This document shows, piece after piece, positions 5,300-31,235 of a stretch of 64,000 bases of DNA (its first letter is position 1; every line of letters starts with the position of its first letter). The translations under genes and the position numbers were made by a program. Source of the stretch: an uncultured Gammaproteobacteria bacterium (GTDB lineage Bacteria > Patescibacteriota > Patescibacteriia > Patescibacteriales > UBA12465); the NCBI GenBank assembly GCA_964435515.1, contig CAYSZD010000001.1:4026-68025 (forward strand). Reading direction: 5' to 3'. Below the pieces are notes generated by a model. The model did no database searches, was not told the origin of the DNA, and saw only the letters and a list, made by a program, of their open reading frames with translations.

Positions 5300-7615
5300 A
5301 TGAAGAAAATAGATTTGTTAGGAATTATGAATTTTTTTAAGCCAATATTTTATTATTCGGCTTTAATTATGGTACCTTTGGGCATGTCATTTTTTTTACC
5401 AATATATAGTCCTTTTACCATGATTAAGTCGGCTTGGTTACAAATATTAGCCGCTTTAATGCTTTTATCTTACTTAATATCTTTTTGGTATAATTATCGC
5501 CAAGGAATAATTAAGATTAACAAGAAATTTGTTTTAACTCTTATACCTTGGGCTACTTTTTTATTAACATTATTAGTGTTAAATATTTTTTCTAGTTATC
5601 AAGCTCAGTCTTTTTTTGGTTCTTATGATAGACAGACTGGTTTTTTATTTTATAGTACTTTAGCAATTTGGTTTGCAATGATAGTTTATTATTTTAGTGG
5701 ATTAGATAATCAAGATAAAGATGCCTTTGTTTTTTGGCAGCAGGGCGTGAAGAGAAGTGCTGTAATAATGTGGATTACAGGCACCTTGGCGGCCGTATAT
5801 GCTTGTTTACAGTTTGTGGGACTTGATTTCGCTGTGTGGCAAGAAGGTCAATTATTAAATCGTTCCATTTCTACTTTAGGCCAGCCTAATTTTTTAGCTT
5901 CTTTTTTATTATTTTCTTTAATAATTAGTGCTTATTTATTTTATTTAAATAAAAGATTTTTAAATCGATCTATTTTGTTTATCACTGTTGTTATTCAATT
6001 GCTAGCTTTAGTTACTAGTGGCTCTCGATCAGCGTGGATAGCTTTTACTATAGCTTTATTAATAATCACTACTTTACTTTTTTGGTCTAAATGGCGTCAA
6101 AAAACATTGATTTTAGTTATTGGCATTTTTATTGTTATTGTTTCTTTTTTTGTGTTTCTTTCTCCTGCTAGATTTGAAGCTTTATTATCTTGGCGTGAAG
6201 GTAGCTTGGGCTTGCGTTCTTATTTCTATAGTGCTGCTCCTAATTTAATTGCTGATAATATATTAACAGGTACGGGCTTAGAAAATGGAGGTGAGGCTAT
6301 TATTGGTAGTTATGAACCTGATTGGGGAATATTTATGCAGATTAATGGATACTCTGATAAATTGCATAATAGCTTCTTAGATATATTGTTGCAATTAGGT
6401 ATATTTGGTTTTATTTTTTATGTTTTATTATATTTATTTGTTTTAAGAGAGTTCTTACGTTTATGGCACAGGCCACAGACTAAAGAGTTTGCTATTTTTA
6501 TTGGTACAGCTCTTATAGCTTATAGTCTTAGTTTATTATTTGGTTTATCTGATATTGTTAATATTTTTTATTTTTGGGTTTTAGCCGCTTTAGGTGTAGC
6601 AGCTAATTTAATTTTTGATTTAAAAAATGAACCTAACAAAAATATATATAGTTATTTGCAAGGGATAAAAAAATTTTTTCATTATCAACATGCAAATAAA
6701 GTAAAGGATATATTTTTATTAATTATGTCCTTTGTTCTGGCTTGTTTTGCAATTTTACAAATTTATTTAAGTCTTAGTTCGGTTAGAGCTGATCATTATT
6801 TTTTAAATTTATATAAACAGTCTTTAAATAAGGAATATTTTACAGCTGAGTTGTTATATCAATATATTTTAGAAGATTCTCATCAGCCTGTTTATCGTGC
6901 TTATTATCAAAGAGCTTACGCCTTTTTTATTTTAGATGCTTTGGATGGATCGTTAGATTTGAGCACAATGAAATTATTAAAAGATACAGCTCGTAGTATT
7001 TTAAATGATTTACCTGATCAAGCTTATGATAATATATATATTAAGGCTAATTTAGAGTGTAATTTAAAAAATATTAATAGCGCCATGACAAAATTTAATA
7101 ATTTACAGAATATAAGCCAGGCACGACCAGCTATATATGCAGCGCAGGCAAATTGTTTAGCTGATAGTAATGTTGCTTTAGCTTTAGATAATTATTATCA
7201 AGCTTTATCTTTTTTACCAAATGTTCAAGACTCACGTCTAGTAGCTGAACATAAAGATTATTTAAATTATTATAATTATTTTATTTATAGTAAAATTGGT
7301 GATTTGTATTATAATAATAAAAGCTATAAAGAGGCTCTAAATTCTTATGGTCGGGCAGCTTATTTTTATCCTAAAGATTTAAAGATTTTAGAGCACGTTG
7401 CTCAATCCGCTTTTTATCTTCAAGATTATCAATTGGCTTATCAAGTATTAGAACATGCATATTTAAGAAATCCTGATATATATTGGATAGAACGCTTAAT
7501 AGCCCTGGCTCATGGTTTAAATGATGAGACCAAACTTCAAAATTATATAGATACTTGGCAAGAGTTAAGTGGTGAGGAATTTAATAATTTATTTGAAAAT
7601 TTAATTTTTCCTTAA
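5300..7615 (+). CDS. O-antigen ligase/polymerase-like polytopic membrane protein with C-terminal TPR-like repeats
   Basis: About 12 hydrophobic helices. Wzy_C-like stretch SGSRSAWIAFTIALLII. The C-terminal 300 aa are helical repeats rich in Y/A/L (TPR-like). Confidence 0.7.
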   Translation: MKKIDLLGIMNFFKPIFYYSALIMVPLGMSFFLPIYSPFTMIKSAWLQILAALMLLSYLISFWYNYRQGIIKINKKFVLTLIPWATFLLTLLVLNIFSSYQAQSFFGSYDRQTGFLFYSTLAIWFAMIVYYFSGLDNQDKDAFVFWQQGVKRSAVIMWITGTLAAVYACLQFVGLDFAVWQEGQLLNRSISTLGQPNFLASFLLFSLIISAYLFYLNKRFLNRSILFITVVIQLLALVTSGSRSAWIAFTIALLIITTLLFWSKWRQKTLILVIGIFIVIVSFFVFLSPARFEALLSWREGSLGLRSYFYSAAPNLIADNILTGTGLENGGEAIIGSYEPDWGIFMQINGYSDKLHNSFLDILLQLGIFGFIFYVLLYLFVLREFLRLWHRPQTKEFAIFIGTALIAYSLSLLFGLSDIVNIFYFWVLAALGVAANLIFDLKNEPNKNIYSYLQGIKKFFHYQHANKVKDIFLLIMSFVLACFAILQIYLSLSSVRADHYFLNLYKQSLNKEYFTAELLYQYILEDSHQPVYRAYYQRAYAFFILDALDGSLDLSTMKLLKDTARSILNDLPDQAYDNIYIKANLECNLKNINSAMTKFNNLQNISQARPAIYAAQANCLADSNVALALDNYYQALSFLPNVQDSRLVAEHKDYLNYYNYFIYSKIGDLYYNNKSYKEALNSYGRAAYFYPKDLKILEHVAQSAFYLQDYQLAYQVLEHAYLRNPDIYWIERLIALAHGLNDETKLQNYIDTWQELSGEEFNNLFENLIFP

Positions 7616-19709: not shown

Positions 19710-19711
19710 TG

Positions 19712-19784
19712 AGCCGAGAATGGGAATTGAACCCACAACCTACGGTTTACGATACCGTTGCTCTACCAATTGAGCTATCTCGGC
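19712..19784 (-). tRNA. tRNA-Thr (anticodon CGT)
   Basis: Reverse complement GCCGAGATAGCTCAATTGGTAGAGCAACGGTATCGTAAACCGTAGGTTGTGGGTTCAATTCCCATTCTCGGCT folds as a cloverleaf: 7-bp acceptor stem, ACGGT/ACCGT anticodon stem, loop ATCGTAA. No encoded CCA. Confidence 0.9.
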
Positions 19785-19793
19785 CGCCAGTTG

Positions 19794-19865
19794 AGCGGGT
19801 GAGCGGAATCGAACCGCCGTCTTCAGCTTGGGAAGCTGACATAATAACCATTATACGACACCCGC
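19794..19865 (-). tRNA. tRNA-Gly (anticodon CCC)
   Basis: Reverse complement GCGGGTGTCGTATAATGGTTATTATGTCAGCTTCCCAAGCTGAAGACGGCGGTTCGATTCCGCTCACCCGCT. Anticodon stem TCAGC/GCTGA, loop TTCCCAA, T-loop TTCGATT. Confidence 0.88.
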
Positions 19866-21502: not shown

Positions 21503-22183
21503 ATGATTACCTTGCTTCATGTTTCAAAAAAATATTCTCGTCAAAATCCCGTGTTAAGAGATGTAAATTTATACGTGAAGGCTGGCGAGTTTGTTTCTAT
21601 TGTAGGGCAATCCGGGGCAGGTAAAACAACTTTGGTGCGTCTTCTTATTGGTGAAGAAAGAGCTGATGAGGGTCAGGTTATCATTGGTGATTGGGATATT
21701 ACTAAGATCAATCGTCATGAAGTTCCATATCTGCGTCGTCAGATAGGAGTTATTTTTCAAGATTTTAAATTGTTGCCAAAGAAGACTTTGTATGAAAATG
21801 TAGCTTTTGCTTTGGAAGTTTGTGGCGCTAGCAGAGGAAAAATAAATAAGATAGTTCCCAGTGTGTTAAAGATTGTTGGTTTAGAAGATAAGCATAATCG
21901 TTATCCTCATGAAGTTTCTGGTGGAGAAAAACAAAGAGTAGCCATTGCGAGAGCTTTAGTTCATCAGCCACGTATTCTATTGGCAGATGAGCCGACTGGT
22001 AATCTGGACGCTATTAATGCTGATGAAATTATCGATTTACTTTTACGGATTAATAAATTTGGTACCACTGTTATTCTAGTTACACATAACAAAGAGATTG
22101 TTAATCGTCTCAAGCGTCGAGTCGTTACTATGGATAAGGGTCAAATCGTGAGTGATAGGGCTCATGGTAAATATATGCTTTAA
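21503..22183 (+). CDS. ftsE: Cell division ABC ATPase FtsE
   Basis: Walker A GQSGAGKTT, ABC signature SGGEKQRVAIARAL, Walker B ILLADEPTGNLD. Confidence 0.93.
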   Translation: MITLLHVSKKYSRQNPVLRDVNLYVKAGEFVSIVGQSGAGKTTLVRLLIGEERADEGQVIIGDWDITKINRHEVPYLRRQIGVIFQDFKLLPKKTLYENVAFALEVCGASRGKINKIVPSVLKIVGLEDKHNRYPHEVSGGEKQRVAIARALVHQPRILLADEPTGNLDAINADEIIDLLLRINKFGTTVILVTHNKEIVNRLKRRVVTMDKGQIVSDRAHGKYML

Positions 22184-22193
22184 CTATTTATTT

Positions 22194-23102
22194 ATGCTTT
22201 CTTTTTTACGCATTATAAAATTTAGTTTTCAAGATATTGCTAGAAATGTCTGGCTCTCTATTGTGACTATTACCATTTTGTTAATCGCTCTTTTCTCTAT
22301 TAATACCCTACTAACAGTTAGGGCTGTAAGTGACAATGCTGTTAATGCTGTAAAAGAAAAAATAGATATCAGTCTCTATTTAAAAGCAGATGCCTCAGAA
22401 AAAGACATTATTTCTTTACAAGAACGTATTACAGGTTTACCTGAGGTTAAAAGTGTAAGTTATACTTCAAAACAAGAGGCTTTAGAAATATTTCGTACTC
22501 GTTATCGAGATAATCAAGAGATCTTACAAGCCTTAAATGAATTAGGTAAAAATCCTCTTTCTCCAAGTTTAGCTATCATGCCATCTGATATAGATAATGC
22601 TTCTAATTTAATTAATATTTTACGTCAGTTAGATTCTGATATTATTGAGTCAAGAGATTTTAGCGATAATTCTGTGATTGTAGATAAAATTCAGAATATT
22701 ACTAAAAGAATAAATGAAGTAGGCGCAGTTATAATAATTATCTTTGTCTTAATCAGCTTATTGGTTGTGTATAATTCTATTCGGGTGGCTGTTTATACTC
22801 ATAAAAAGGAAATTGAAATTATGCGTTTAGTGGGAGCTTCAAATTTCTTTATTTATATGCCTTTTCTTTTTTCTGCTTTTATCTACGCTCTTGTAAGTGT
22901 CATGATAATGATTGCTCTTTTTTATCCCTTCCTCACTTTAATCCAACCTTATTTATCAGTATTTTTAGCTGGTTATAATGTTAATTTGTTAGAATATTTT
23001 GTTTATAACTTTTGGCCTATTTTTGGAGCACAGTTTGCTGTTATTTTCTTTATCACTCTATTTGCTAGTTTTTATGCAGTTCGTAAGTATGCGCGTATTT
23101 AG
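22194..23102 (+). CDS. ftsX: Cell division permease FtsX
   Basis: The ATG at 22194 (MLSFLRIIKF...) is preferred over the tracked start at 22152, which overlaps ftsE. Four TM helices with a periplasmic loop, and the MRLVGASNFFI motif. Confidence 0.85.
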   Translation: MLSFLRIIKFSFQDIARNVWLSIVTITILLIALFSINTLLTVRAVSDNAVNAVKEKIDISLYLKADASEKDIISLQERITGLPEVKSVSYTSKQEALEIFRTRYRDNQEILQALNELGKNPLSPSLAIMPSDIDNASNLINILRQLDSDIIESRDFSDNSVIVDKIQNITKRINEVGAVIIIIFVLISLLVVYNSIRVAVYTHKKEIEIMRLVGASNFFIYMPFLFSAFIYALVSVMIMIALFYPFLTLIQPYLSVFLAGYNVNLLEYFVYNFWPIFGAQFAVIFFITLFASFYAVRKYARI

Positions 23103-23182: not shown

Positions 23183-23253
23183 TCGGGGATCGTCTAATGG
23201 TAGGACAGTGGCCTTTGAAGCCATCAATCATGGTTCGAATCCATGTCCCCGAG
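23183..23253 (+). tRNA. tRNA-Gln (anticodon TTG)
   Basis: TCGGGGATCGTCTAATGGTAGGACAGTGGCCTTTGAAGCCATCAATCATGGTTCGAATCCATGTCCCCGAG. It has U1-A72 (typical of bacterial tRNA-Gln), anticodon stem GTGGC/GCCAT, loop CTTTGAA and T-arm CATGG-TTCGAAT-CCATG. Confidence 0.92.
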
Positions 23254-23416
23254 CAAAACACAAAATCAGGCTTTTAAGGCCTATTTTTGTTTTAATATTA
23301 GAAACATTTTAAGTTCTAAAGTGGTTCGAACTTTTTTGGGATATTTGGGATAATTTATAGTAATCTATAGAAATACCTTGATTTTATTGGTCAATATCGG
23401 TTCGAATCCATGTCCT
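23219..23416 (+). repeat. Repeat unit A: authentic tRNA-Gln 3' part + hairpin/T-run + 128-nt core
   Basis: AGCCAT...CCCCGAGCA (23219-23255), hairpin 23268-23288, core GTTTTAATATTAGA...GGTTCGAATCCATGTCCT (23289-23416). Confidence 0.85.
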
Positions 23417-23494
23417 ATTTTTAAACTTAAAATATGTTATAATGAATTTATAAAGTTAATAATATAAATAAAAAATAATTTTAAGAATTAAAAT

Positions 23495-24445
23495 ATGGCA
23501 GCACAAATTTTGATTTTAATAGTCTCATTGATAACTTTGGGATTTGCAGCAAATTACCTTGTTAACTCTAGTATAAAAATTGCTAGAAAATGGAAAGTTT
23601 CTGAAATGTTTATTGGCTTAACTATTGTTGCTATTGGAACATCTGCCCCGGAATTAGCAGTTTCCGCCTTCGCCGCCTTAAAGGGCCAAGGGGATTTGTC
23701 TGTTGGGAATGTTATTGGCTCTAATATTTTTAATTTAGGATTCATCTTGGGTCTAGTTACTATTATTGCGCCACAGGTAATTCCTAAAAAAATGGTTAAA
23801 CGAGATGGGGTGGTTCTTTTTATCTCCACAATCATGATTCTTTTTTTCATGTGGGATCTTAAAATTGTTTTTTGGGAAGGACTAATCTTATTAGCTAGTT
23901 TAGTTTCATATTTAACCCTTCTTTGGGTTAAGAAAGACGTTCAAACGGAAGAAGATGATGGAGAAGTTGCGACACGGAAAGACTATTTAATCTTTATAAT
24001 TAGTTTAGCTATTTTGGTAAAATCATCCGATTTCACAGTTTCGTCTGCTGTTTTTATTGCTGAGTACTTCAAAATTTCTGCTTGGGCTATTGGGGCAACT
24101 ATCGTTGCTGCTGGGACAAGTTTGCCCGAAATGGCCACCTCAATAATTGCCGCCTTAAAAAAGAAATTTGGTTTATCTGTCGGCAATGTGATTGGTTCCG
24201 ATATTTTTAACACGTTTGGCATAATAGGAATAAGTAGCGTTATCGCCCCAATTTCACTAATGTCAAAGGGGCAAATCTTTGGCATAGCTGATTCTGTTTT
24301 TTCTGTTATCATGTTAATAGCCACCATTCTTCTTCTATTAATATTTATGAGAAGCGGCTGGAAGATTAGTCGTAGGGAAGGAATTATCATCTTGATAATT
24401 GCTTTGATGAGAATGGCTTTTGAGGTTTATGTTGGAAAAACGTAA
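23495..24445 (+). CDS. CaCA-family cation/Ca2+ exchanger (YrbG-like)
   Basis: 316 aa, about 10 TM helices. Two alpha-repeats, GTSAPELAVS and GTSLPEMATS, each followed by GNVIGS(N/D)IFN. Confidence 0.88.
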   Translation: MAAQILILIVSLITLGFAANYLVNSSIKIARKWKVSEMFIGLTIVAIGTSAPELAVSAFAALKGQGDLSVGNVIGSNIFNLGFILGLVTIIAPQVIPKKMVKRDGVVLFISTIMILFFMWDLKIVFWEGLILLASLVSYLTLLWVKKDVQTEEDDGEVATRKDYLIFIISLAILVKSSDFTVSSAVFIAEYFKISAWAIGATIVAAGTSLPEMATSIIAALKKKFGLSVGNVIGSDIFNTFGIIGISSVIAPISLMSKGQIFGIADSVFSVIMLIATILLLLIFMRSGWKISRREGIIILIIALMRMAFEVYVGKT

Positions 24446-24570
24446 AATATAATATTTATAAATAATCGTACGAAATGTTGATGAGTTAGCCCGTATTTAT
24501 TAGATTTTTCCTTGTAACTGAGTATTACTCTTTAGAGATAGGATCGTACCTATAATTATCATCTAATTTT

Positions 24571-24737
24571 AGCCACACTATTTCGAACTTCGTCCACGAC
24601 CCCGAGCACCTTTATAGAAACGAGCGGAAACGCCCGTTTTTATTATGTAAAATCGGTTCGAAAATAACATCAAATTATTACTATTTTAGCAAACACCTTG
24701 ATTTTATTAGCTCAAAAAAGTTCGAATCCTTGTCCCT
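24571..24737 (+). repeat. Repeat unit B (most degenerate): tRNA-Gln 3'-half remnant + hairpin/T-run + shortened core
   Basis: AGCCACACTATTTCGAACTTCGTCCACGACCCCGAGCA (24571-24608), hairpin 24620-24641, then a core remnant ending CCTTGATTTTATTAGCTCAAAAAAGTTCGAATCCTTGTCCCT. Confidence 0.75.
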
Positions 24738-24775
24738 GTTTTTAAAATATTAATTATGAGATATAATTAAAATAT

Positions 24776-25285
24776 ATGAAATTTATAAAAACTATACAAT
24801 TTAAAGATCTAAGAATCGAAGATACTGATAAGTTTAAAATTCGCCGGGCAGCCAGGGCTGTTGTTTTTGATAATAATAAAAATATTGGGATTTTATATGT
24901 CAGCAAATATAATTATCATAAACTACCTGGAGGCGGTCTTGAAGGCGACGAAGCCATCGAAGGGGCGCTTAAAAGAGAATGCTTAGAAGAGATTGGGTGT
25001 AGCACAGAAATATTTGGCGAGCTTGGGGAAATTATTGAATACAGAGATAAATGGTCTTTAAAACAGCATTCATATTGCTATTTAGCTAATGTTGTCGGCG
25101 AAAAAGGGAGTCCTAATTTTACTGAAAAGGAAATAGATAATGGTTTTGAAATAAAATGGGTTTCGCTACAGGAAGCTATTAAATTACTAGAAAATGATAA
25201 GCCGGAAGATTATGAGGGAGGATTTATACAAATAAGAGATAGCAGTTTTCTTAAAGAAGCCAAGAACCTTTTAGAAACTGCATAG
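24776..25285 (+). CDS. NUDIX hydrolase
   Basis: Nudix box GGGLEGDEAIEGALKRECLEEIGC. Confidence 0.85.
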   Translation: MKFIKTIQFKDLRIEDTDKFKIRRAARAVVFDNNKNIGILYVSKYNYHKLPGGGLEGDEAIEGALKRECLEEIGCSTEIFGELGEIIEYRDKWSLKQHSYCYLANVVGEKGSPNFTEKEIDNGFEIKWVSLQEAIKLLENDKPEDYEGGFIQIRDSSFLKEAKNLLETA

Positions 25286-25294
25286 TCAACTAAT

Positions 25295-25573
25295 ATGCCA
25301 AAAAAAATAATAAAAAAGATTCTTCCTGAATATTTTCAAGATATTGTTGACGGAAAAAAGAAGTACGAGTTTCGTCTTAATGATTTTAATATTAAGGTTG
25401 GAGATACTCTAGTTTTAGAAGAGTGGACATCAGCAGATCCTAAAAATAGGCAAGCCACTGGCAGAAAATTAGAAAGAAAAGTTACGTATTTAAGAAAGTT
25501 TAAATTACAAGATTTGTGGTTTAGTGAAGAAGATATTAAAGAGAAGGGGTTTCAAATAATTTCATTCGAATGA
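25295..25573 (+). CDS. ASCH/PUA-fold small protein (DUF3850-like)
   Basis: ILPEYFQDIVDGKKKYEFRLNDFNIKVGDTLVLEEW matches the DUF3850/ASCH pattern (xPxYFxxIxxGxKxFExRxND..xxVGDxLxLxE). Ends at a TGA stop. Confidence 0.65.
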   Translation: MPKKIIKKILPEYFQDIVDGKKKYEFRLNDFNIKVGDTLVLEEWTSADPKNRQATGRKLERKVTYLRKFKLQDLWFSEEDIKEKGFQIISFE

Positions 25574-25625
25574 AATTATTTGGAAGAAAATTAAATTAAT
25601 CGGTATCTGAATTTTCCTTATTATT

Positions 25626-25825
25626 AGCCATCCACGTCCGAAAACCGTCTCTCCAAGCGAGCAAAACAACAAAATTGAGCCGAAAGGCTCTTTTTTTGTT
25701 TTAATATTAGATACATTTTAAGTTCCAAAGCGGTTCGAATATTTTTGGGATATTTTAGATAATCTACAGTAATTTATATAAAAACCTTGATTTCATTGGT
25801 CAATATTGGTTCGAATCCACGTCCT
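25626..25825 (+). repeat. Repeat unit C: tRNA-Gln 3'-half remnant + GNRA hairpin/T-run + 128-nt core
   Basis: AGCCATCCACGTCCGAAAACCGTCTCTCCAAGCGAGCA (25626-25663), GAGCC-GAAA-GGCTC + T7 (25677-25697), core 25698-25825. Confidence 0.85.
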
Positions 25826-25872
25826 GTGTTTTTGGTTTTTATATTTTAATTTTTAGGTTATAATAGTGATAT

Positions 25873-26799
25873 ATGAAACCAACACTTATCACATGTTATG
25901 TAAATCCAGACTTAGATGGGGTGGCTGGAGCCTTTGCCTATGGTGAATTTTTACAGAAGACGGGCAGAGAATCTATTGTTGGTATTATCGGAGAGCCGCA
26001 CGACGAAGCTAAATATATTTTAGATCGTTATAATATTCCATATCCCCAGAAAATAATTAATGCTGATAATTTTGATGAGGTCGTCCTGGTTGACGCCAGC
26101 GATTTAAATGGTCTTGAGGGAAATATTGCGCCGGAAAAAGTAGTTGAGATTATTGATCACAGAAAAATTAATGAAGCTGATAAATTTCCTAATGCTAGGG
26201 TGCAAATTGAATTAGTCGGCTCAGCTGCTACTTTAATAGCAGAAAAGTTTATTGAAAATAATATTAATATTTCCAAAGAGTCAGCAATTTTACTTTGTGG
26301 AGCCATTATATCCAATACTCTTAATTTTAAGGGTGGAGTTACAACAGACAGAGATAAAAAGGCCGTAGAGTATCTTGATAAAATAGCACTCTTGCCAGAT
26401 AATTTCTGGAAAGATCTTTTTATGGCCAAGTCAGATTTATCAGGAAGCAAGTTGAGTGAAAGAATTGAAGGCGATTTTGCGTGGTTTACTTTTGCTGATA
26501 AAAAAGTTGGCATTGCTCAAATTGAAATTGTCGGAGCTGAGATGCTTATCAAAGAAAGAATTGAAGAAATTATTAAGGTACTTGAGAAAATAAGGCAAGA
26601 TATGGGACTAGATTATATTTTTCAAAATACTATCGAGTTAGAGTTAGAATGTAATTATTTTATCAGTCCAGATCTAAAAACACAGAAACTATTGGAAAAA
26701 GTTTTAAATATTAAATTTAATGAGGCTGTTGCCAAAAGGCCAAATTTAATCATGCGCAAGCAAATCGTTCCACTAATTAAAGAGGAACTAGAACATTAA
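25873..26799 (+). CDS. DHH/DHHA2 phosphoesterase (family II inorganic pyrophosphatase-like)
   Basis: N-terminal NPDLDG metal motif, VDASD, IIDHRK (DHH-position motif), and a C-terminal DHHA2-like MRKQIVP motif. At 308 aa it is the size of PpaC-type enzymes. Confidence 0.75.
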   Translation: MKPTLITCYVNPDLDGVAGAFAYGEFLQKTGRESIVGIIGEPHDEAKYILDRYNIPYPQKIINADNFDEVVLVDASDLNGLEGNIAPEKVVEIIDHRKINEADKFPNARVQIELVGSAATLIAEKFIENNINISKESAILLCGAIISNTLNFKGGVTTDRDKKAVEYLDKIALLPDNFWKDLFMAKSDLSGSKLSERIEGDFAWFTFADKKVGIAQIEIVGAEMLIKERIEEIIKVLEKIRQDMGLDYIFQNTIELELECNYFISPDLKTQKLLEKVLNIKFNEAVAKRPNLIMRKQIVPLIKEELEH

Positions 26800-26821
26800 A
26801 AAAGCTATTATCTTAATTACT

Positions 26822-27364
26822 ATGGAAGAATATTTAGATATTGTTGATGAAAATAATAATATTACGGGAGAAAAGAAATTGAGATCTCTAATTCACAAAG
26901 ACGGCTCTTGGCACAGAACGGTTCATATTTATTATTTTATGAAGAAGAATAATGAATATTATTTTCTCGTTCATCTCAGGTCTAAAGCAAAAGATTTGTG
27001 CCCAAACATGTGGGACACACGTTTTGGTGGCCATTTAAAATCAGGTCAGGATGTAAAACAAACACTTATATCTGAGTTAGAAGAAGAAATTGGATTAAGG
27101 GCTGATATTAATAAATTTATTCCCGGGCCAATTTTAAAAAGAGATGATTTGCCAAACAATGAATTTACTTATGTTTATTATTATCCAGGATTAGAGGATA
27201 TTAGTAGTTTAAAATTTGCTGATAATGAGGTTCAAGAAGTGAAGTGGTTGCCAGCGCAAGATATAGTAGAGGGAATTAAAAATAATTCTAATGATTGGGC
27301 CCCTAGTTTAGAGGGTTTTGAAGGCATTTATAAGTATTTTATTGATTTTCAAGATTCTAAGTAG
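26822..27364 (+). CDS. NUDIX hydrolase
   Basis: Nudix box GGHLKSGQDVKQTLISELEEEIGL, and an upstream WHRTVHIYYF strand typical of the fold. Confidence 0.8.
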   Translation: MEEYLDIVDENNNITGEKKLRSLIHKDGSWHRTVHIYYFMKKNNEYYFLVHLRSKAKDLCPNMWDTRFGGHLKSGQDVKQTLISELEEEIGLRADINKFIPGPILKRDDLPNNEFTYVYYYPGLEDISSLKFADNEVQEVKWLPAQDIVEGIKNNSNDWAPSLEGFEGIYKYFIDFQDSK

Positions 27365-27393
27365 GATTATACTTCTAGTTTTTCTTAAATATT

Positions 27394-27592
27394 AGTCACA
27401 TTAGTTCGAACTTCGTCCACGACCCCGAGCAAAATGCGAAAGCAGGTTTTAAAAGCCTGTTTTTGTTTTAATATTAGACACATTTTAAGTTCCAAAGCGG
27501 TTCGAACATTTTTGGGATATTTTAGATAATCTATAGTAATTTGTGGAAAAGCCTTTATTTTATTGGCTCATATTGGTTCGAACTTGCGTCAT
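27394..27592 (+). repeat. Repeat unit D: tRNA-Gln 3'-half remnant + hairpin/T-run + 128-nt core (right end diverged)
   Basis: AGTCACATTAGTTCGAACTTCGTCCACGACCCCGAGCA (27394-27431; 3 differences from the unit B copy), hairpin 27443-27464, core 27465-27592. Confidence 0.85.
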
Positions 27593-27646
27593 GTTGTTTG
27601 GCTAAGTAAGTTATGATATTATATAAATATAAAATTATTTTCATGT

Positions 27647-30043
27647 ATGGAGCTTAACCTAAAAAAAATAGATTTGCCACCTCAAAAGAACGAGGATCTA
27701 AAAGAAAAAGACTGTAATTTTATAAAAAATAATTTCGAAAAGCATATTGAGTTGTATAGAAGTGTTGCGGAAAAGAAAGGCATTAAGGCGGTGAATGGTG
27801 GTTTGTTTGTGATGGTTGACGGTATTGAATATAAATACGATAGCAATGGAGATGCTTACAAGACAGAGGTTAACTCCGATGGTTGTAATTTAAATACGGG
27901 AAGGGTTGACCAGGTGGGCAGTTACTGGGAAAATAATGGGAAAATTGCTTTTGTTGATGAGCTTGGGCAAGTTTGGATTGGGGCAAATAACGATTCAAAT
28001 ATAACAGCCTTAAACGAGGCTAATTATCAAAGAAGTAGTATTTGGGTCCCGTTTTCTAACGGAGAAGAGCCGGTAGATAAGGAGGTCTATAAGAAAATTA
28101 GAGATGTGCTAACCGGGAAAGGAGGCGACCAATTAAAGATAGAAAGAAATACTAGAGTTAAAAAAATTATTAATCAAAGAGAAATATTGTTTGGGGAAGC
28201 AAATGCTTTTGTTGATGAAAATGAGTTATATGAACAAGTGGCGTATAACGATGGTGAGTATTATATTAACGAAAAAAAAATAATTAACGAAAAATTACAG
28301 CCACAAATTGAAAAAGATAATGCTGGATTTGGGCGTAAAGTTTATATAATAAATAATCAAACATTTTCTTTCAAGGGCAGGGAGGAGATGCCGGTATATG
28401 AAACGCTTGCTAATTCAAGGAGTGTTTTCTTGGGGGAAGACCCAAAATTTATTAATCCAAAAGATTTTGAAAAATATAAAGAATCGTTAGAGAATAATAA
28501 CAAAAATAAAGAATTACCTCAGCATTTTATTGTTAATAAATCTTTGTTGGGAGTTCTCGAGCTTGCCGTACAACTTGGAAGCAATGATGGGAGCCTTTTA
28601 AAAATAATTACTGATTTAAAAAAAGGTATTTATAGCGAGAGAGCGCTATTATTGCTAGATGCTCTAATAGCAGGCGACTGCATAAATATAATTTTGTACG
28701 GGGAAGAAACAGATAAAGACACCGAGGCTCTAGTTTTACTTTCTTTGCTCGGGGACGCTGATTCCCAAATAGTTGTAAGAGAAAATATGGAATTATTTCA
28801 GAATGAGATAGCGAAATTTAAAGAACGGTATAAGAAAGAAAATAATAAAGAGTATGAAAAAATTAAGCTAGAGTGGGGGTCGGAGTATGAGGCTCTAGAT
28901 ATAAAAGATCTTTGCGCTGTCCATTCTACTAGATATAAACCGGAGAGAGCCGAGGATGGGTTTACGGTTAGAACTCTTTTTGATGCAACTAATGGAGAAT
29001 ATCTTCGAAATACAATTCATGTCAGTCTTAATCATAAGGTGAAAGGGCATATGTATGGTTCTTGGGATGATGCTAACTATGTTCTAGTTTCCCCACTGGA
29101 AAGGATGGTGGAGTTAAATGGGTTGCCGCAAAGGTTAAATACTGTGGATACTTTTTGGAATGCTAATCCCGGGGCCCCAGTTGTATTCCCTGACGCCGTT
29201 TTAATCTCTCCTGGTAGCAGAGAGATGCATGAATTGTTCCAACGAGACGGGAATATTCTAAATTTTAAGTCTGAAAATTTCAGCAAAGAGGATTTGGTAG
29301 TTCTTAAAAGTGCTTTTGAAAAAGAGGGTCGCTTGAATGACTTTTTAATGATTATAGAACAGAAGTTAAAGAAAGTTTTTGAATCTTATGATTTAGATAA
29401 AAAATTAAAAGAGCAGTGGGATTTAGATGTTGTGCAAGAAAAAATTAATCAATTTTTATATAAAAACAATGATTTTAATAAAAGTCATAATTTAAACGTT
29501 TTTGACTTGTTGCCATCTACGGGCAATTCTGATTCATCAGAGGCTTATATTGACGCCTCGGTTAAGTATTTAATTGAGCAATCGGGAGCGCTGGTTGGGA
29601 TTAAGGTGGATTCTCATGATAGCAATCAGGCTATAATAGATCTGGTTAGATATTTATCTGGTGTGATTAGCTTAGTCGTTGCTCGGGTTGTTAATGAATT
29701 AGCTGTTAGCATAGTTCTTAAAACTAAAGGCTTTGATGAGAAGAAAGGAGGGGAGTCGTCATGGAGTGACTATAACTCTAAATATCAAATAATGGAACTA
29801 GGGGCAGAGCTCGGTGTTATAGGGGGGCCGCATGAAGGAGGGGAAGATGATATTGTTGTTTCAACACATCAATATTATATAAGAAAAGCGAAGGAAGACA
29901 AAAATGGAGATGAGGGGGATTTTGATTGGTCTCAATACTCATTTAGTTATGAAAAATTATTATTTAATGATTTATTAAAGAGACTGGATGCAAAAACTCT
30001 TCGTGTCATTTATGCGGCCGGAGCTTTAAATGCCAGGTATTAG
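27647..30043 (+). CDS. Large hypothetical protein (798 aa), no family recognised
   Basis: Long uninterrupted ORF directly after repeat unit D. No obvious signal peptide or TM helix. Has a beta-rich N-terminal part, a helical middle, and a conserved-looking block VHSTRYKP...RNTIHVSLNHKVKGHMYGSWDDANYVLVSP. Confidence 0.8.
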   Translation: MELNLKKIDLPPQKNEDLKEKDCNFIKNNFEKHIELYRSVAEKKGIKAVNGGLFVMVDGIEYKYDSNGDAYKTEVNSDGCNLNTGRVDQVGSYWENNGKIAFVDELGQVWIGANNDSNITALNEANYQRSSIWVPFSNGEEPVDKEVYKKIRDVLTGKGGDQLKIERNTRVKKIINQREILFGEANAFVDENELYEQVAYNDGEYYINEKKIINEKLQPQIEKDNAGFGRKVYIINNQTFSFKGREEMPVYETLANSRSVFLGEDPKFINPKDFEKYKESLENNNKNKELPQHFIVNKSLLGVLELAVQLGSNDGSLLKIITDLKKGIYSERALLLLDALIAGDCINIILYGEETDKDTEALVLLSLLGDADSQIVVRENMELFQNEIAKFKERYKKENNKEYEKIKLEWGSEYEALDIKDLCAVHSTRYKPERAEDGFTVRTLFDATNGEYLRNTIHVSLNHKVKGHMYGSWDDANYVLVSPLERMVELNGLPQRLNTVDTFWNANPGAPVVFPDAVLISPGSREMHELFQRDGNILNFKSENFSKEDLVVLKSAFEKEGRLNDFLMIIEQKLKKVFESYDLDKKLKEQWDLDVVQEKINQFLYKNNDFNKSHNLNVFDLLPSTGNSDSSEAYIDASVKYLIEQSGALVGIKVDSHDSNQAIIDLVRYLSGVISLVVARVVNELAVSIVLKTKGFDEKKGGESSWSDYNSKYQIMELGAELGVIGGPHEGGEDDIVVSTHQYYIRKAKEDKNGDEGDFDWSQYSFSYEKLLFNDLLKRLDAKTLRVIYAAGALNARY

Positions 30044-30082
30044 GCTTATTTGATTGGTTATTAATAATTAATAAATAAATTT

Positions 30083-30790
30083 ATGGAAAATGAAATTAAT
30101 CAAGCGGAAATTATTCCGATGCCAAGAATTGGTGATAAGGCGCCAAGTTTTAAGGCAGTAACTACTCAAGGAGAAATTAATTTTCCTGATGATTATAAAG
30201 ATTCTTGGGTAATATTATTTAGTCACCCAGCTGATTTTACTCCTGTTTGTACTTCAGAATTTATGACTTTTGCTAGTCAAGAAGAAAAGTTTAATAAGGC
30301 CGGTTGTAAATTAATCGGGCTATCTATTGACGGCCTATATAGTCATATTGCTTGGCTTAGAACTATAAAAGAAAAAATAGAATACAAGGGGATGAAAAAT
30401 GTTGAGGTCAAGTTTCCCTTAATTGAAGATATTACTATGGAGGTTGCTAATAAGTATGGCATGGTCCAACCAGGAGAAAGTAGTACTAAGGCTGTTAGAG
30501 CGGTATTTTTTATTGACCCTAAAGGAATTATTAGGGCTATTATTTATTATCCATTAAGTTTGGGTAGAAATTTTGATGAATTATATCGAGCTTTAATAGC
30601 TATGCAGACGGCTGATAAATTTTCTATTGCCACCCCAGCTGACTGGCAGCCTGGTGATGATGTGATCGTACCAACCGCTGGTTCATGTGGAGTTGCTCAA
30701 GAGAGAATGGATAGTAGCGATATTAATTGTTATGATTGGTTTTTCTGCACTAAAAAGCTTAGTAAGGAAGACGTAGAAAAGTCTATTTAG
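30083..30790 (+). CDS. Peroxiredoxin (1-Cys/Prx6-like)
   Basis: Peroxidatic Cys motif HPADFTPVCTSEF and the thioredoxin fold; 235 aa. Confidence 0.92.
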   Translation: MENEINQAEIIPMPRIGDKAPSFKAVTTQGEINFPDDYKDSWVILFSHPADFTPVCTSEFMTFASQEEKFNKAGCKLIGLSIDGLYSHIAWLRTIKEKIEYKGMKNVEVKFPLIEDITMEVANKYGMVQPGESSTKAVRAVFFIDPKGIIRAIIYYPLSLGRNFDELYRALIAMQTADKFSIATPADWQPGDDVIVPTAGSCGVAQERMDSSDINCYDWFFCTKKLSKEDVEKSI

Positions 30791-30800
30791 ATAAAATATT

Positions 30801-31235
30801 ATGCGCCTTTGGAGTCTATCGCCGCAATATTTAGACAGGCAGGGCCTTCTCGCTGTTTGGCGAGAGGGCTTATTAGCTAGAAAAGTGTTATCTAATAAGA
30901 CAAAGGGCTATAAAAATCATCCTCAATTAGATAGGTTTAAAGCAAGTGATGAACCACTTAAGAATATAGATATATATTTGTATGGAATTTTTTTAGAGGC
31001 AAAAAACAGAGGCTATAAATTTGATAAAAGCAAAATAGCTATTTGTGAGATATATAATAAGCAAATAAATGTAACTACCGGACAGGTATTATATGAGTTT
31101 AGGCATTTGCTTAATAAACTTAAAGTCAGAGATCTTGCTAAATTTGAAGAATTAAAAAATGTCACTAATCCAGAATTACATTTTATATTTAAATTAATAT
31201 CAGGTGACATAGAAAGGTGGGAAAGAGTTAAATAG
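30801..31235 (+). CDS. Pyrimidine dimer DNA glycosylase/endonuclease V-like protein
   Basis: The N-terminus MRLWSLSPQYLDRQGLLAVWREGLLARKVL...KGYKNHPQLDRF matches the conserved start of proteins annotated with this function. Confidence 0.7.
   Translation: MRLWSLSPQYLDRQGLLAVWREGLLARKVLSNKTKGYKNHPQLDRFKASDEPLKNIDIYLYGIFLEAKNRGYKFDKSKIAICEIYNKQINVTTGQVLYEFRHLLNKLKVRDLAKFEELKNVTNPELHFIFKLISGDIERWERVK

What the first reader, a model, noticed from the sequence alone, without database searches (positions are those of the whole stretch)
23183..30082. tRNA-Gln followed by four tandem 'tRNA-half + hairpin + core' units that separate tiny gene cassettes, with no recombinase
Seen: an intact tRNA-Gln(UUG) lies at 23183-23253. 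Its 3' portion, from the 3' side of the anticodon stem (AGCCAT...CCCCGAGCA, 23219-23255), recurs as degenerate direct copies at 24571-24608, 25626-25663 and 27394-27431. The copies at 24571 and 27394 differ from each other at only 3 of 38 positions by hand alignment. Each copy is followed by a small hairpin plus T-run (23268-23288, 24620-24641, 25677-25697, 27443-27464). The hairpin stems differ in sequence but keep their pairing. Each hairpin is then followed by a conserved core (23289-23416, 25698-25825, 27465-27592; degenerate at 24641-24737). Between units sit one or two + strand genes: CaCA exchanger; Nudix+ASCH; DHH/DHHA2+Nudix; 798-aa ORFan. Known: elements that integrate into tRNA genes carry a copy of the tRNA 3' part. 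Serial integration therefore leaves a ladder of 3'-half remnants, as in tRNA-linked islands and tycheposon-type arrays. The remnants here begin right after the anticodon loop, a classical integrase crossover sublocation. Inference: four related miniature elements accreted at this tRNA. Unlike classical islands, each unit is only about 1-2.7 kb, none encodes an integrase, and all share the same non-coding left arm. That is closer to an integron-like, trans-mobilised cassette system than to any described island type.
Basis: partly seen in the sequence, partly recalled or inferred. Interest (0 to 1): 0.88.

Follow-up and report, generated by a model that had tools for sequence, protein, structure and literature searches.

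The report
Recombinase-less gene cassette array at tRNA-Gln
Downstream of a tRNA-Gln gene in a Patescibacteria (CPR) chromosome lies a stack of one- or two-gene mobile cassettes without a recombinase, each ending in a copy of the tRNA's 3' end, and a large serine recombinase found at the same sites in related genomes probably moves them.

Summary
tRNA-Gln(UUG) at 23183-23254 is followed by four direct units: a tRNA-3'-like 38-mer ("A"), a GC hairpin with T-run, and a ~130-nt core. These units occur nowhere else in the 64 kb.

The same junction module occurs 168 times in 75 sequences, mostly Patescibacteria metagenomic DNA. It forms arrays of up to at least 6 units downstream of tRNA-Gln(UUG), tRNA-Gln(CUG) and tRNA-Asn(GUU).

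Cassettes behave as discrete transferable units. The CaCA cassette (99% identical) sits in at least 4 different neighbourhoods, and the DHH+Nudix cassette is 99.3% identical in an unrelated genome.

No recombinase lies in the window. In related loci, ~7-kb elements carrying a large serine recombinase (LSR) plus a rolling-circle Rep occupy exactly these junctions, both at the tRNA and at internal A sites. This LSR is the likely trans-acting enzyme, but that step is inferred, not shown.

The kind is known: Ccr/SCC composite islands, Dehalococcoides ssrA islands, cis-mobilizable elements. The miniature, integron-like format with a conserved terminator+core module is a new variant. The function of the core is unresolved.

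The parts
23183..23254 (+). Intact tRNA-Gln(UUG), the anchor of the array. Its last bases plus CA (CCGAGCA, 23249-23255) form the inferred exchange region.
   Evidence: ARAGORN and Rfam at 64.9 bits. Synteny with L061 ends at 23255.
23256..24608 (+). Cassette 1. It comprises an A-rich linker, terminator-like hairpin (23268-23282), core 1 (23289-23425), the CaCA exchanger gene (23495-24445) and the tRNA-3' mimic A2 (24571-24608).
   Evidence: Pfam Na_Ca_ex, 8.8e-61. The block is 96.5% identical in L013 and 99% identical in L075-L078, and each match ends exactly at 24608. The identical protein is found in 13 contigs and at least 4 contexts.
24609..25663 (+). Cassette 2. It comprises a hairpin (24622-24639), the short-type core (24641-24745), Nudix (24776-25285), DUF3850/ASCH (25295-25573) and A3 (25626-25663).
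   Evidence: Pfam. L024 matches window 24613-25670 at 84%. L083 is 100% identical across window 24029-27431, which covers most of cassette 2 and all of cassette 3.
25664..27431 (+). Cassette 3. It comprises a hairpin (25677-25690), core 3 (25698-25834), DHH/DHHA2 (25873-26799), Nudix (26822-27364) and A4 (27394-27431).
   Evidence: Pfam. It is 99.3% identical over 1822 nt (window 25610-27431) in L008/L081, a genome whose array is anchored at tRNA-Gln(CUG). The L005 and L047 matches also end at 27431.
27432..30043 (+). Cassette 4, open-ended. It comprises a hairpin (27436-27466), core 4 (27465-27601) and a 798-aa conserved hypothetical gene (27647-30043). No A copy follows it, so the distal end of the array is undefined.
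   Evidence: nhmmer. L074 is 99.9% identical over window 27482-30365. Homologues are listed. There is no Pfam, PDB or NCBIfam hit.
21503..23102 (+). Conserved left flank, FtsE (21503-22183) and FtsX (22152-23102). The same flank precedes tRNA-Gln(UUG) arrays in L007, L021, L031, L061 and L070.
   Evidence: Pfam; synteny.
30083..30790 (+). 1-Cys peroxiredoxin on the right-hand side. In L007 its homologue lies between two units, so it may itself lie inside the array region.
   Evidence: Pfam. L007 5879-6114 matches window 30539-30771 at 79% and is followed by a unit at 6162.

Best explanation
The locus is an array of miniature, recombinase-less integrative cassettes. They were stacked at the 3' end of tRNA-Gln by site-specific recombination within or next to the 7-nt CCGAGCA.

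Each cassette has four parts, from left to right:
- an A-rich linker and an intrinsic-terminator-like hairpin, which closes the upstream transcription unit;
- usually a conserved ~130-nt core;
- one or two genes on the tRNA strand;
- a 38-nt mimic of the tRNA's T-arm and acceptor 3' strand ('A'), which recreates a target site for the next insertion.

The enzyme is most likely a large serine recombinase (LSR) supplied in trans. It is encoded by ~7-kb LSR + rolling-circle-Rep elements that insert at exactly these junctions in related genomes.

Shown: cassette boundaries, cross-genome transfer, turnover, and LSR elements sitting at the tRNA and at internal A sites.

Inferred: that this LSR, rather than another enzyme, moves the small cassettes, and that the core supplies a promoter/leader or accessory recombination function.
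For: 1. The module is widespread and specific. Core-pattern scans returned 21 genome loci and 43 metagenome loci, all true unit hits. In total there are 168 junctions in 75 sequences. The 78 cassettes bounded on both sides have a median length of 1.5 kb, with 130 ORFs on the tRNA strand and 18 on the opposite strand. Intact tRNAs immediately preceding a junction are Gln-UUG, Gln-CUG or Asn-GUU, and all end in ...GAGCA (L001...GAGCG).

2. Cassettes are discrete transferable units. Window 25610-27431 is 99.3% identical in L008/L081, whose flanks are unrelated. Window 23249-24608 is 96.5% identical in L013 and about 99% identical in L075-78, with different neighbours. All right-hand borders fall exactly at the A 3' end. 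Syntenic relatives (L061, L070, L007, L021, L031) diverge immediately after GAGCA. Cargo is mostly singletons: 267 clusters from 382 ORFs.

3. The LSR is tied to the site. The 513-aa LSR of L055 (Resolvase + Recombinase + Zn_ribbon_recom) heads a 7-kb element that starts right after a canonical A and ends with its own A followed by hairpin and core. All five homologues of at least 74% identity that were examined (in seven loci) abut the 3' end of tRNA-Gln or tRNA-Asn, with the junction CCGAGCA followed by TTGAAGAAAAATCGC or a close variant. L070 carries such an element at the very FtsX-tRNA-Gln(UUG) locus of this window, followed by at least 4 further junctions.

4. The LSR also targets the A mimics. 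C-terminal tails of LSR homologues read through the antisense of canonical A (P0006), A3-type (P0008, P0061) and GC-rich A (P0050). This shows insertions at internal A sites of several types.

5. A second, divergent LSR lineage (32% identity) heads an element adjoining the array that holds the 99%-identical CaCA cassette.

6. The hairpins behave as terminators. There are 114 distinct sequences to the right of the junction; the cassette junctions carry many different stems that all pair and are followed by T-runs, whereas the left ends of the LSR elements do not.
Against: - No LSR or any other recombinase lies in the 64-kb window. 29 of its ORFs were scanned with Pfam. The rest of the source genome cannot be searched here.
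- The link between the LSR and the small cassettes is co-location, not demonstration.
- Canonical LSRs recombine only attP with attB. An array whose internal junctions all look alike requires relaxed partner choice, as reported for Ccr and TnpX (my own knowledge). No directionality factor was identified.
- The sequence to the right of the junction is poorly conserved, apart from an A-tract at about +7 to +11 and the hairpin. That is unusual for an LSR half-site.
- Some mosaic breakpoints lie after the hairpin rather than at GAGCA (L075 versus the window). Homologous recombination among conserved modules therefore also reshuffles the arrays.
- No circular cassette junction was found in short contigs.
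- The loci were retrieved by a core pattern, so the prevalence of the core is biased upwards.
Confidence: 0.65

Rival explanations
1. Classical tRNA island ladder. Successive tyrosine-integrase elements crossed over inside the tRNA on its anticodon side. The A copies are displaced host tRNA halves that decayed, and the integrases were later lost.
For: The direct copies begin at the 3' side of the anticodon stem. Tyrosine integrases commonly target tRNA genes (general knowledge; tycheposon preprint).
Against: No phage-integrase domain was found in the 109 ORFs of the window and related loci scanned with Pfam or NCBIfam. The breakpoints that can be placed precisely map at or next to GAGCA at the 3' end of A. 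The A copies fall into conserved types shared across genomes rather than showing graded decay. The only recombinases seen at these junctions are serine recombinases.
Confidence: 0.08
2. Integron-like or HUH-type single-strand mechanism. The structure-conserved, sequence-variable hairpin next to the exchange point is the recombination substrate, like attC or IS200/IS605 ends. It would be processed by an IntI-like or HUH (Rep/Y1) enzyme.
For: Hairpins keep pairing while their sequence varies, and they lie 8-12 nt from the junction. The LSR elements carry an HUH-type rolling-circle Rep. One Y1_Tnp gene lies in L072.
Against: Every cassette hairpin is followed by a T-run and preceded by an A-tract, which is the signature of an intrinsic terminator. 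The boundaries read GAGCA followed by an A-rich stretch, not GTTRRRY. No IntI was found. The left ends of the LSR elements have no such hairpin, yet use the same junction.
Confidence: 0.1
3. Not mobile. A terminator-promoter module downstream of tRNA-Gln was duplicated locally, and genes were shuffled by homologous recombination between module copies.
For: Cores are 79% identical on average, which is long enough for homologous exchange. Some mosaic breakpoints lie inside the module. Gene pairs are reshuffled within cassettes: DHH+Nudix in the window versus DHH+ASCH in L005.
Against: Cassettes that are 99% identical occur in genomes whose flanks are unrelated or only 68-76% identical. The borders are base-precise at GAGCA. 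Junctions without any core are common (54 of 152). Recombinase-bearing elements occupy the same junctions.
Confidence: 0.05
4. Assembly artefact caused by a collapsed or chimeric repeat.
For: Short-read contigs often break inside the units (L074, L089-L092).
Against: Independent assemblies from other samples span the U2 and U3 junctions and the junction of the tRNA 3' part with cassette 1 (L080, L083, L088). The same architecture is seen in over 70 other sequences.
Confidence: 0.02

Closest known systems
SCC / psiSCC composite islands of staphylococci (Ccr large serine recombinases, rlmH 3' end)
   Same: An LSR targets the 3' end of a conserved gene. Elements stack in tandem, separated by short direct repeats of the target. 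Recombinase-less members rely on an enzyme supplied by another element. The LSR here scores best against the CcrA and CcrB models.
   Different: The scores are far below the Ccr family cut-offs (97 and 87 bits against 700 and 900), so this LSR is not a Ccr. The target is a tRNA, not rlmH. Cassettes are about 1-3 kb rather than 20-60 kb. Each carries a conserved terminator+core module. The host phylum is Patescibacteria.
Dehalococcoides ssrA genomic islands (DsiB CcrB-like serine recombinase; PMC3146451)
   Same: Tandem islands lie downstream of a small RNA gene and are bounded by repeats of its 3' end. The LSR gene lies on the reverse strand next to attL. Fifteen of the islands have no integration module and were interpreted as cis-mobilizable elements.
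   Different: There the repeat is 20 bp and insertion is in the T-loop of tmRNA. The islands are many kb long and 16 of them carry a six-gene integration module. Here the exchange is at the extreme 3' end, the repeat is a 38-nt mimic plus a ~170-nt non-coding module, and nearly all units lack a recombinase.
Integrons (IntI, attI, attC cassette arrays)
   Same: Function and format are similar. There is a fixed insertion point, a unidirectional array of mostly one-gene cassettes, and each cassette ends in a recombination site. The enzyme is encoded outside the cassettes, and cargo is highly diverse.
   Different: No IntI tyrosine recombinase is present, and there is no attC R/L-box architecture or GTTRRRY boundary. 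Cassettes bring their own terminator, and probably their own promoter region, instead of depending on Pc. The anchor is a tRNA gene.
Tycheposons of Prochlorococcus (bioRxiv 10.1101/2020.12.28.424599)
   Same: Both give tRNA-anchored islands of flexible genes in streamlined genomes. New arrivals push older elements inwards. Partial tRNAs mark the boundaries. A minority of the elements in that study use LSRs.
   Different: All 937 elements in that study, tycheposons included, carry their own integrase (910 of the 937 a tyrosine recombinase), and many carry replication genes. They are much larger, and only 1-2 occur per genome. Here the units are recombinase-less mini-cassettes with a shared non-coding module.
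CIMEs (cis-mobilizable elements) and accretion-mobilization in streptococcal ICEs
   Same: Both are elements bounded by att sites that lack recombination and transfer genes. They accumulate in tandem with an autonomous element at the same site.
   Different: CIMEs depend on tyrosine integrases of ICEs. They are few per site and have no conserved expression module.

Membership tests
LSR-mobilised tandem islands (SCC / ssrA-GI type) | A large serine recombinase gene lies next to attL and reads towards the target gene's 3' end. | tested here: inconclusive
   Absent from the window. Present at the same junctions in related loci L055, L065-L073 and L075. The rest of the source genome could not be searched.
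LSR-mobilised tandem islands (SCC / ssrA-GI type) | Insertion is at the 3' end of one conserved gene, and every element is bounded by a direct repeat of that end. | tested here: met
   The junction lies after ...CCGAGCA of tRNA-Gln, and A copies lie at 24571-24608, 25626-25663 and 27394-27431.
LSR-mobilised tandem islands (SCC / ssrA-GI type) | Recombinase-less members lie in tandem with autonomous ones. | tested here: met
   L055, L070 and L075 each combine an LSR element with small cassettes in one array.
LSR-mobilised tandem islands (SCC / ssrA-GI type) | Excision and integration have been demonstrated (circles, empty sites). | not testable with these tools
   No reads are available. No terminal-overlap contigs were found.
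Ccr recombinase family (equivalog) | The protein scores above the NCBIfam CcrA, CcrB or CcrC cut-off. | tested here: not met
   It scores 96.8, 86.9 and 69.4 bits against cut-offs of 700, 900 and 900.
Integron | An IntI-type tyrosine recombinase gene lies adjacent to the insertion point. | tested here: not met
   The genes upstream are FtsE/FtsX, or an aminoacyl-tRNA synthetase-type gene and GreA in the CUG loci. No Phage_integrase hit appeared in any scan.
Integron | attC sites have R''-L''/L'-R' symmetry and GTTRRRY cassette boundaries. | tested here: not met
   The boundaries read GAGCA followed by an A-rich linker. The hairpins are followed by T-runs.
Tyrosine-integrase tRNA islands / tycheposons | The element encodes its own integrase, usually a tyrosine recombinase. 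| tested here: not met
   No integrase lies in any of the four window cassettes, nor in the roughly 75 ORFs scanned from related array loci.
Tyrosine-integrase tRNA islands / tycheposons | Partial tRNA copies flank the elements. | tested here: met
   A copies are present. However, they are element-borne mimics, and the exchange point is at their 3' end.
Dispersed intergenic repeats (MITE / REP) | Many copies are scattered across the genome, with terminal inverted repeats or target duplications. | tested here: not met
   There are four copies, all at one locus and in one orientation, within the 64 kb. Elsewhere the units are seen only in tRNA-anchored arrays.
Structured non-coding RNA or riboswitch (for the core) | An Rfam match, or a conserved secondary structure with covariation. 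| tested here: not met
   Rfam in E-value mode finds only tRNAs. RNAalifold gives 0.0 kcal on 51 cores on both strands, and single-sequence z-scores range from -1.0 to +1.1.

The most novel reading that the evidence does not exclude
Patescibacteria have a serine-recombinase-driven functional analogue of the integron. The 3' ends of tRNA-Gln and tRNA-Asn serve as landing pads. Single-gene cassettes are captured, stacked and exchanged between species in trans. Each cassette carries a portable insulator and expression module (terminator + conserved core) and a tRNA-mimic site that regenerates the landing pad.
Probability: 0.45. Interest if true: 0.8.

Novelty: new variant of a known kind. Interest (0 to 1): 0.62.

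Why it matters
CPR/Patescibacteria have very small genomes, and little is known about how they acquire flexible genes. This locus type shows a specific and apparently widespread route. Compact arrays of 1-2-gene cassettes move between species at near-identity. Their cargo includes defence-type genes (Fic/DOC, RhuM, reverse transcriptases, restriction-modification), Nudix and DHH enzymes, and transporters.

If the LSR link holds, this would be a natural multi-cassette landing-pad system for a serine integrase. That is of practical interest for genome engineering. It would also give a handle for studying gene flow in organisms that cannot yet be cultured alone.

Tried and rejected
- Exact-protein look-ups for FtsX and the peroxiredoxin found nothing on record.
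- The viral-contig scan with the core pattern returned 0 hits. LSR searches of viral contigs gave no close relatives and only two relatives at 36-40% identity. No extrachromosomal attP form was therefore recovered.
- The core as a structured RNA was rejected. Rfam, RNAalifold on both strands and shuffling z-scores were all negative.
- A sigma-70 consensus scan gave no more promoter-like sites than shuffled sequence and none consistently placed within the cores. Hand-picked -35/-10 candidates inside the core (TTGTTT-17-TAAGTT; TTCGAA-16/18-GATAAT or TACTAT) are not compelling, so promoter function remains conjecture.
- A tyrosine integrase was not found in any of the 109 ORFs scanned.
- No circular-cassette signature, such as terminal overlaps, was found in cassette-sized contigs.
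- An antisense coding constraint on the A site, as the LSR's C-terminal tail, got only weak support. Within the canonical type, variation is higher at antisense third-codon positions (0.64 bits against 0.35 and 0.40; permutation p=0.03). This is a hint, not a result.
- Literature searches found no description of such arrays in CPR.

Full report
**What is in the window**

The window has 33% G+C. It carries housekeeping genes: SecF, FtsA, FtsZ, DnaJ, an ATP synthase subunit, FtsE and FtsX.

tRNA-Gln(UUG) lies at 23183-23254. Four direct units follow it at 23219-23444, 24571-24776, 25626-25854 and 27394-27633. An HMM built from them finds nothing comparable elsewhere in the 64 kb. The four hits have E-values from 1e-44 to 6e-70, and the next best has E=0.04.

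Each unit has three parts:
- A 37-38-nt copy of the tRNA from the 3' side of the anticodon stem to ...GAGCA. I call this copy 'A'.
- An A-rich linker, a G+C hairpin and a T-run.
- A ~130-nt core. The core contains two further GGTTCGAA boxes, and its last 25 nt copy the tRNA's variable loop and T-arm (family D4).

None has a recombinase domain.

**The module is widespread**

I scanned 185,579 species genomes with a degenerate 31-nt pattern taken from the core. This gave 21 loci. The same scan of JGI metagenomes gave 43 more. All of them carry full units by HMM.

With loci fetched later, I count 168 junctions in 75 sequences. Records that carry a name are mostly Patescibacteria, including Falkowbacteria and Paceibacterota. 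All have 29-39% G+C.

Where an intact tRNA immediately precedes the first junction, it is tRNA-Gln(UUG), tRNA-Gln(CUG) or, once, tRNA-Asn(GUU). Every one ends in ...CCGAGCA or ...CGGGAGCA (once ...CCGAGCG), followed directly by the linker and hairpin.

Arrays reach at least 6 units (L052, L047). In L081 the array spans about 13.5 kb, from tRNA-Gln(CUG) up to IleRS.

About one third of the junctions (54 of 152) have only A plus hairpin, with no core.

The 78 distinct cassettes bounded on both sides have a median length of 1.5 kb. Most carry one to three ORFs. 130 ORFs lie on the tRNA strand and 18 on the opposite strand.

**Cassettes are discrete, transferable units**

Cargo is mostly unique to each locus: 382 ORFs fall into 267 clusters. 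It includes:
- Fic/DOC, RhuM, a reverse transcriptase, and restriction-modification genes (a type I specificity subunit; a HinfI-type endonuclease with a methyltransferase);
- Nudix, DHH and ASCH proteins;
- YibE/F, EamA and ABC/MacB transporters;
- APH, an LD-carboxypeptidase, TrpR and a SLOG protein.

Some cassettes recur at near-identity in unrelated contexts.
- Window 25610-27431 (A3 through A4) is 99.3% identical in L008/L081. That array hangs on tRNA-Gln(CUG), next to an aminoacyl-tRNA synthetase gene.
- The CaCA cassette is 96.5% identical in L013 and about 99% identical in L075-L078. In L075-L078 it lies between a 156-aa and a 376-aa cassette. In L079 it is followed by a 168-aa gene.
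- The identical CaCA protein is found in 13 contigs.

All right-hand homology borders fall exactly at the last base of A, at 24608 and 27431. Left-hand borders fall at or inside CCGAGCA, at 23249 and about 25658.

L061 is the closest syntenic relative. It shares tRNA-Thr, tRNA-Gly, the S11 peptidase, FtsE, FtsX and tRNA-Gln(UUG), at 75.6% nucleotide identity. Its homology with the window stops at 23255, and its array holds entirely different genes.

They also move the exchange point from the anticodon side to the extreme 3' end of the tRNA.

It follows that the A copies belong to the right end of each cassette. They are not displaced host tRNA halves. Consistent with this, they fall into a few conserved types shared across genomes. 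The canonical type accounts for at least 52 of 130 distinct junctions, and an A3 type for 18.

Some mosaicism points to homologous exchange inside the module as well. For example, L075 and the window share the core and cargo but have different hairpins.

**The hairpin and the core**

There are 114 distinct sequences to the right of the junction. At cassette junctions they carry many unrelated stems, all foldable, preceded by an A-tract and followed by a T-run; the left ends of the LSR elements lack such a hairpin. I read the cassette hairpins as intrinsic terminators. Each closes the tRNA or the preceding cassette.

The core averages 79% pairwise identity, and a 33-nt block is nearly invariant. 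It has no Rfam match, no RNAalifold consensus on either strand, and no unusual folding energy. It is therefore probably a DNA-level element.

Its position and fixed orientation, between the terminator and the cargo start, suggest a promoter or leader module. The three spaced T-loop-like boxes leave open an accessory recombination role. Neither role was shown.

**The candidate enzyme**

Pfam or NCBIfam scans of 109 ORFs (29 from the window, 80 from related loci) found no tyrosine integrase.

They did find a 513-aa large serine recombinase (LSR) in L055. It lies at the left end of a 7-kb element that also encodes a rolling-circle Rep. The element begins immediately after a canonical A (...CCACGACCCCGAGCA|TTGAAGAAAAATCGC...). 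It ends with its own A, followed by hairpin and core. Its boundaries are therefore those of the cassettes.

The LSR has many homologues in Patescibacteria. I examined five homologues of at least 74% identity, in seven loci. Each gene converges on, and overlaps, the 3' end of tRNA-Gln(CUG or UUG), or in one case an intron-bearing tRNA-Asn. The junction after CCGAGCA is TTGAAGAAAAATCGC or a close variant of it.

A homologue at 68% identity does the same at tRNA-Ser(GCU).

L070 is the same chromosomal locus as this window: S11 peptidase, FtsE, FtsX, tRNA-Gln(UUG). There an LSR element sits first, followed by at least four further A junctions.

The C-terminal tails of LSR homologues are encoded across the junction. 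Most read the antisense of a tRNA T-arm (...RDSNP...). Others read the antisense of canonical A (P0006), A3-type A (P0008, P0061) or the GC-rich A (P0050). The enzyme's own element therefore inserts at internal A sites of several types.

L041 holds a remnant of an LSR 3' end at an A3-type junction.

A second LSR lineage, only 32% identical, heads an element next to the array that holds the 99%-identical CaCA cassette.

The LSR scores best against the CcrA and CcrB models, but far below their cut-offs.

**Mechanism proposed**

The LSR recognises the T-arm and acceptor region of tRNA-Gln or tRNA-Asn, or its mimic A. It exchanges strands within or next to GAGCA.

A cassette circle would carry A joined to its own linker and hairpin. 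Insertion places the hairpin behind the tRNA and leaves A at the far end as a fresh target. Arrays therefore grow, and any segment between two A-type sites can leave again.

Transfer between species could ride on the LSR+Rep elements, by accretion-mobilisation. This last step is pure inference.

Weak points:
- No recombinase lies in the window.
- Canonical LSRs do not recombine look-alike sites, so a partner choice as relaxed as that of Ccr or TnpX must be assumed (my own knowledge).
- The right half-site is poorly conserved.
- No directionality factor and no circular junction were found.

**Comparison and novelty**

The kind is known. LSR-driven tandem islands at the 3' end of a conserved gene, with non-autonomous members, are described for SCC/psiSCC and for Dehalococcoides ssrA islands (PMC3146451). 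Tycheposons give tRNA-anchored flexible islands.

Several features are new:
- the host phylum;
- the tRNA-Gln/Asn 3'-end target;
- miniaturisation to mostly one- to three-gene cassettes;
- the conserved terminator+core module;
- the resulting integron-like arrays.

Four literature searches found no description of this in CPR.

I rate it a new variant of a known kind, with interest 0.62.

Noticed in passing
L067 1631-1859 (minus strand): A group I intron (Rfam RF00028, 101 bits) interrupts the anticodon loop of a tRNA-Asn(GUU) gene in a Patescibacteria contig. The intron-less version is in L034. ARAGORN misses the split gene. An LSR element is inserted at its 3' end.
   Followed up: partly
L005 1282-2283 (minus strand, original coordinates); also L009, L032, L033, L038, L039 and L047: A reverse transcriptase of about 335 aa is the most recurrent cargo, seen in 8 loci. 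Its Pfam family is RVT_1. Its best NCBIfam hits, group II intron RT and Drt3a, are below cut-off. In several loci (for example L005 and L038) a ~220-aa protein without any family hit lies upstream of it. It may be a defence RT.
   Followed up: partly
L055 283-1539; also L003, L034, L047, L052 and L060: A ~420-aa protein with no Pfam or NCBIfam hit recurs as a single-gene cassette in 6 loci.
   Followed up: no
Re-oriented coordinates: L007 2876-2958, L009 1758-1840, L016 3952-4030, L001 7585-7667, L070 17750-17793: A 60-85-nt G+C-rich segment precedes some A copies (...GCGGAAATCCCTGTCCCCGAGCA) in otherwise A+T-rich DNA. In L070 it is the right end of the LSR element. Elsewhere it may mark remnants of such elements. 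It has no Rfam hit.
   Followed up: partly
window 27575-27601: In unit 4 the sequence after the second GGTTCGAA box (CTTGCGTCATG) departs from the core consensus (TCCAYGTCCTG). It resembles the canonical A copy (CTTCGTCCACG) instead. This hints at past exchange between the two T-loop-like boxes.
   Followed up: no
window 30801-31235: The pyrimidine-dimer glycosylase gene (Pyr_excise) lies just beyond the array here. In the tRNA-Gln(CUG) loci L006, L065 and L066 its homologue sits directly upstream of the tRNA.
   Followed up: no
L004, L006, L009, L013, L014, L016, L017, L020 and L021 (labelled Gammaproteobacteria); L003 (Endomicrobiaceae); L018 (Planctomycetota): Contigs with typical Patescibacteria-type arrays, 30-39% G+C and Patescibacteria-like flanking genes are filed under unrelated taxa in public MAGs. 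This is probably binning contamination or mislabelling.
   Followed up: no
L061 10856-11806 (minus strand): An rve-family DDE transposase (an IS element) sits inside the array of the closest syntenic relative of the window.
   Followed up: no
LSR homologues P0001-P0120: The last 15-30 residues of these LSRs are encoded across the attachment site. The C-terminus therefore changes with the insertion context: antisense of a tRNA, or of different A types. Within canonical A copies, variation is enriched at antisense third-codon positions (p=0.03).
   Followed up: partly
window 19711-19865 (minus strand): tRNA-Thr(CGU) and tRNA-Gly(CCC) lie 3.3 kb upstream of tRNA-Gln and carry no units. The same pair is conserved in L061 and L070.
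   Followed up: no
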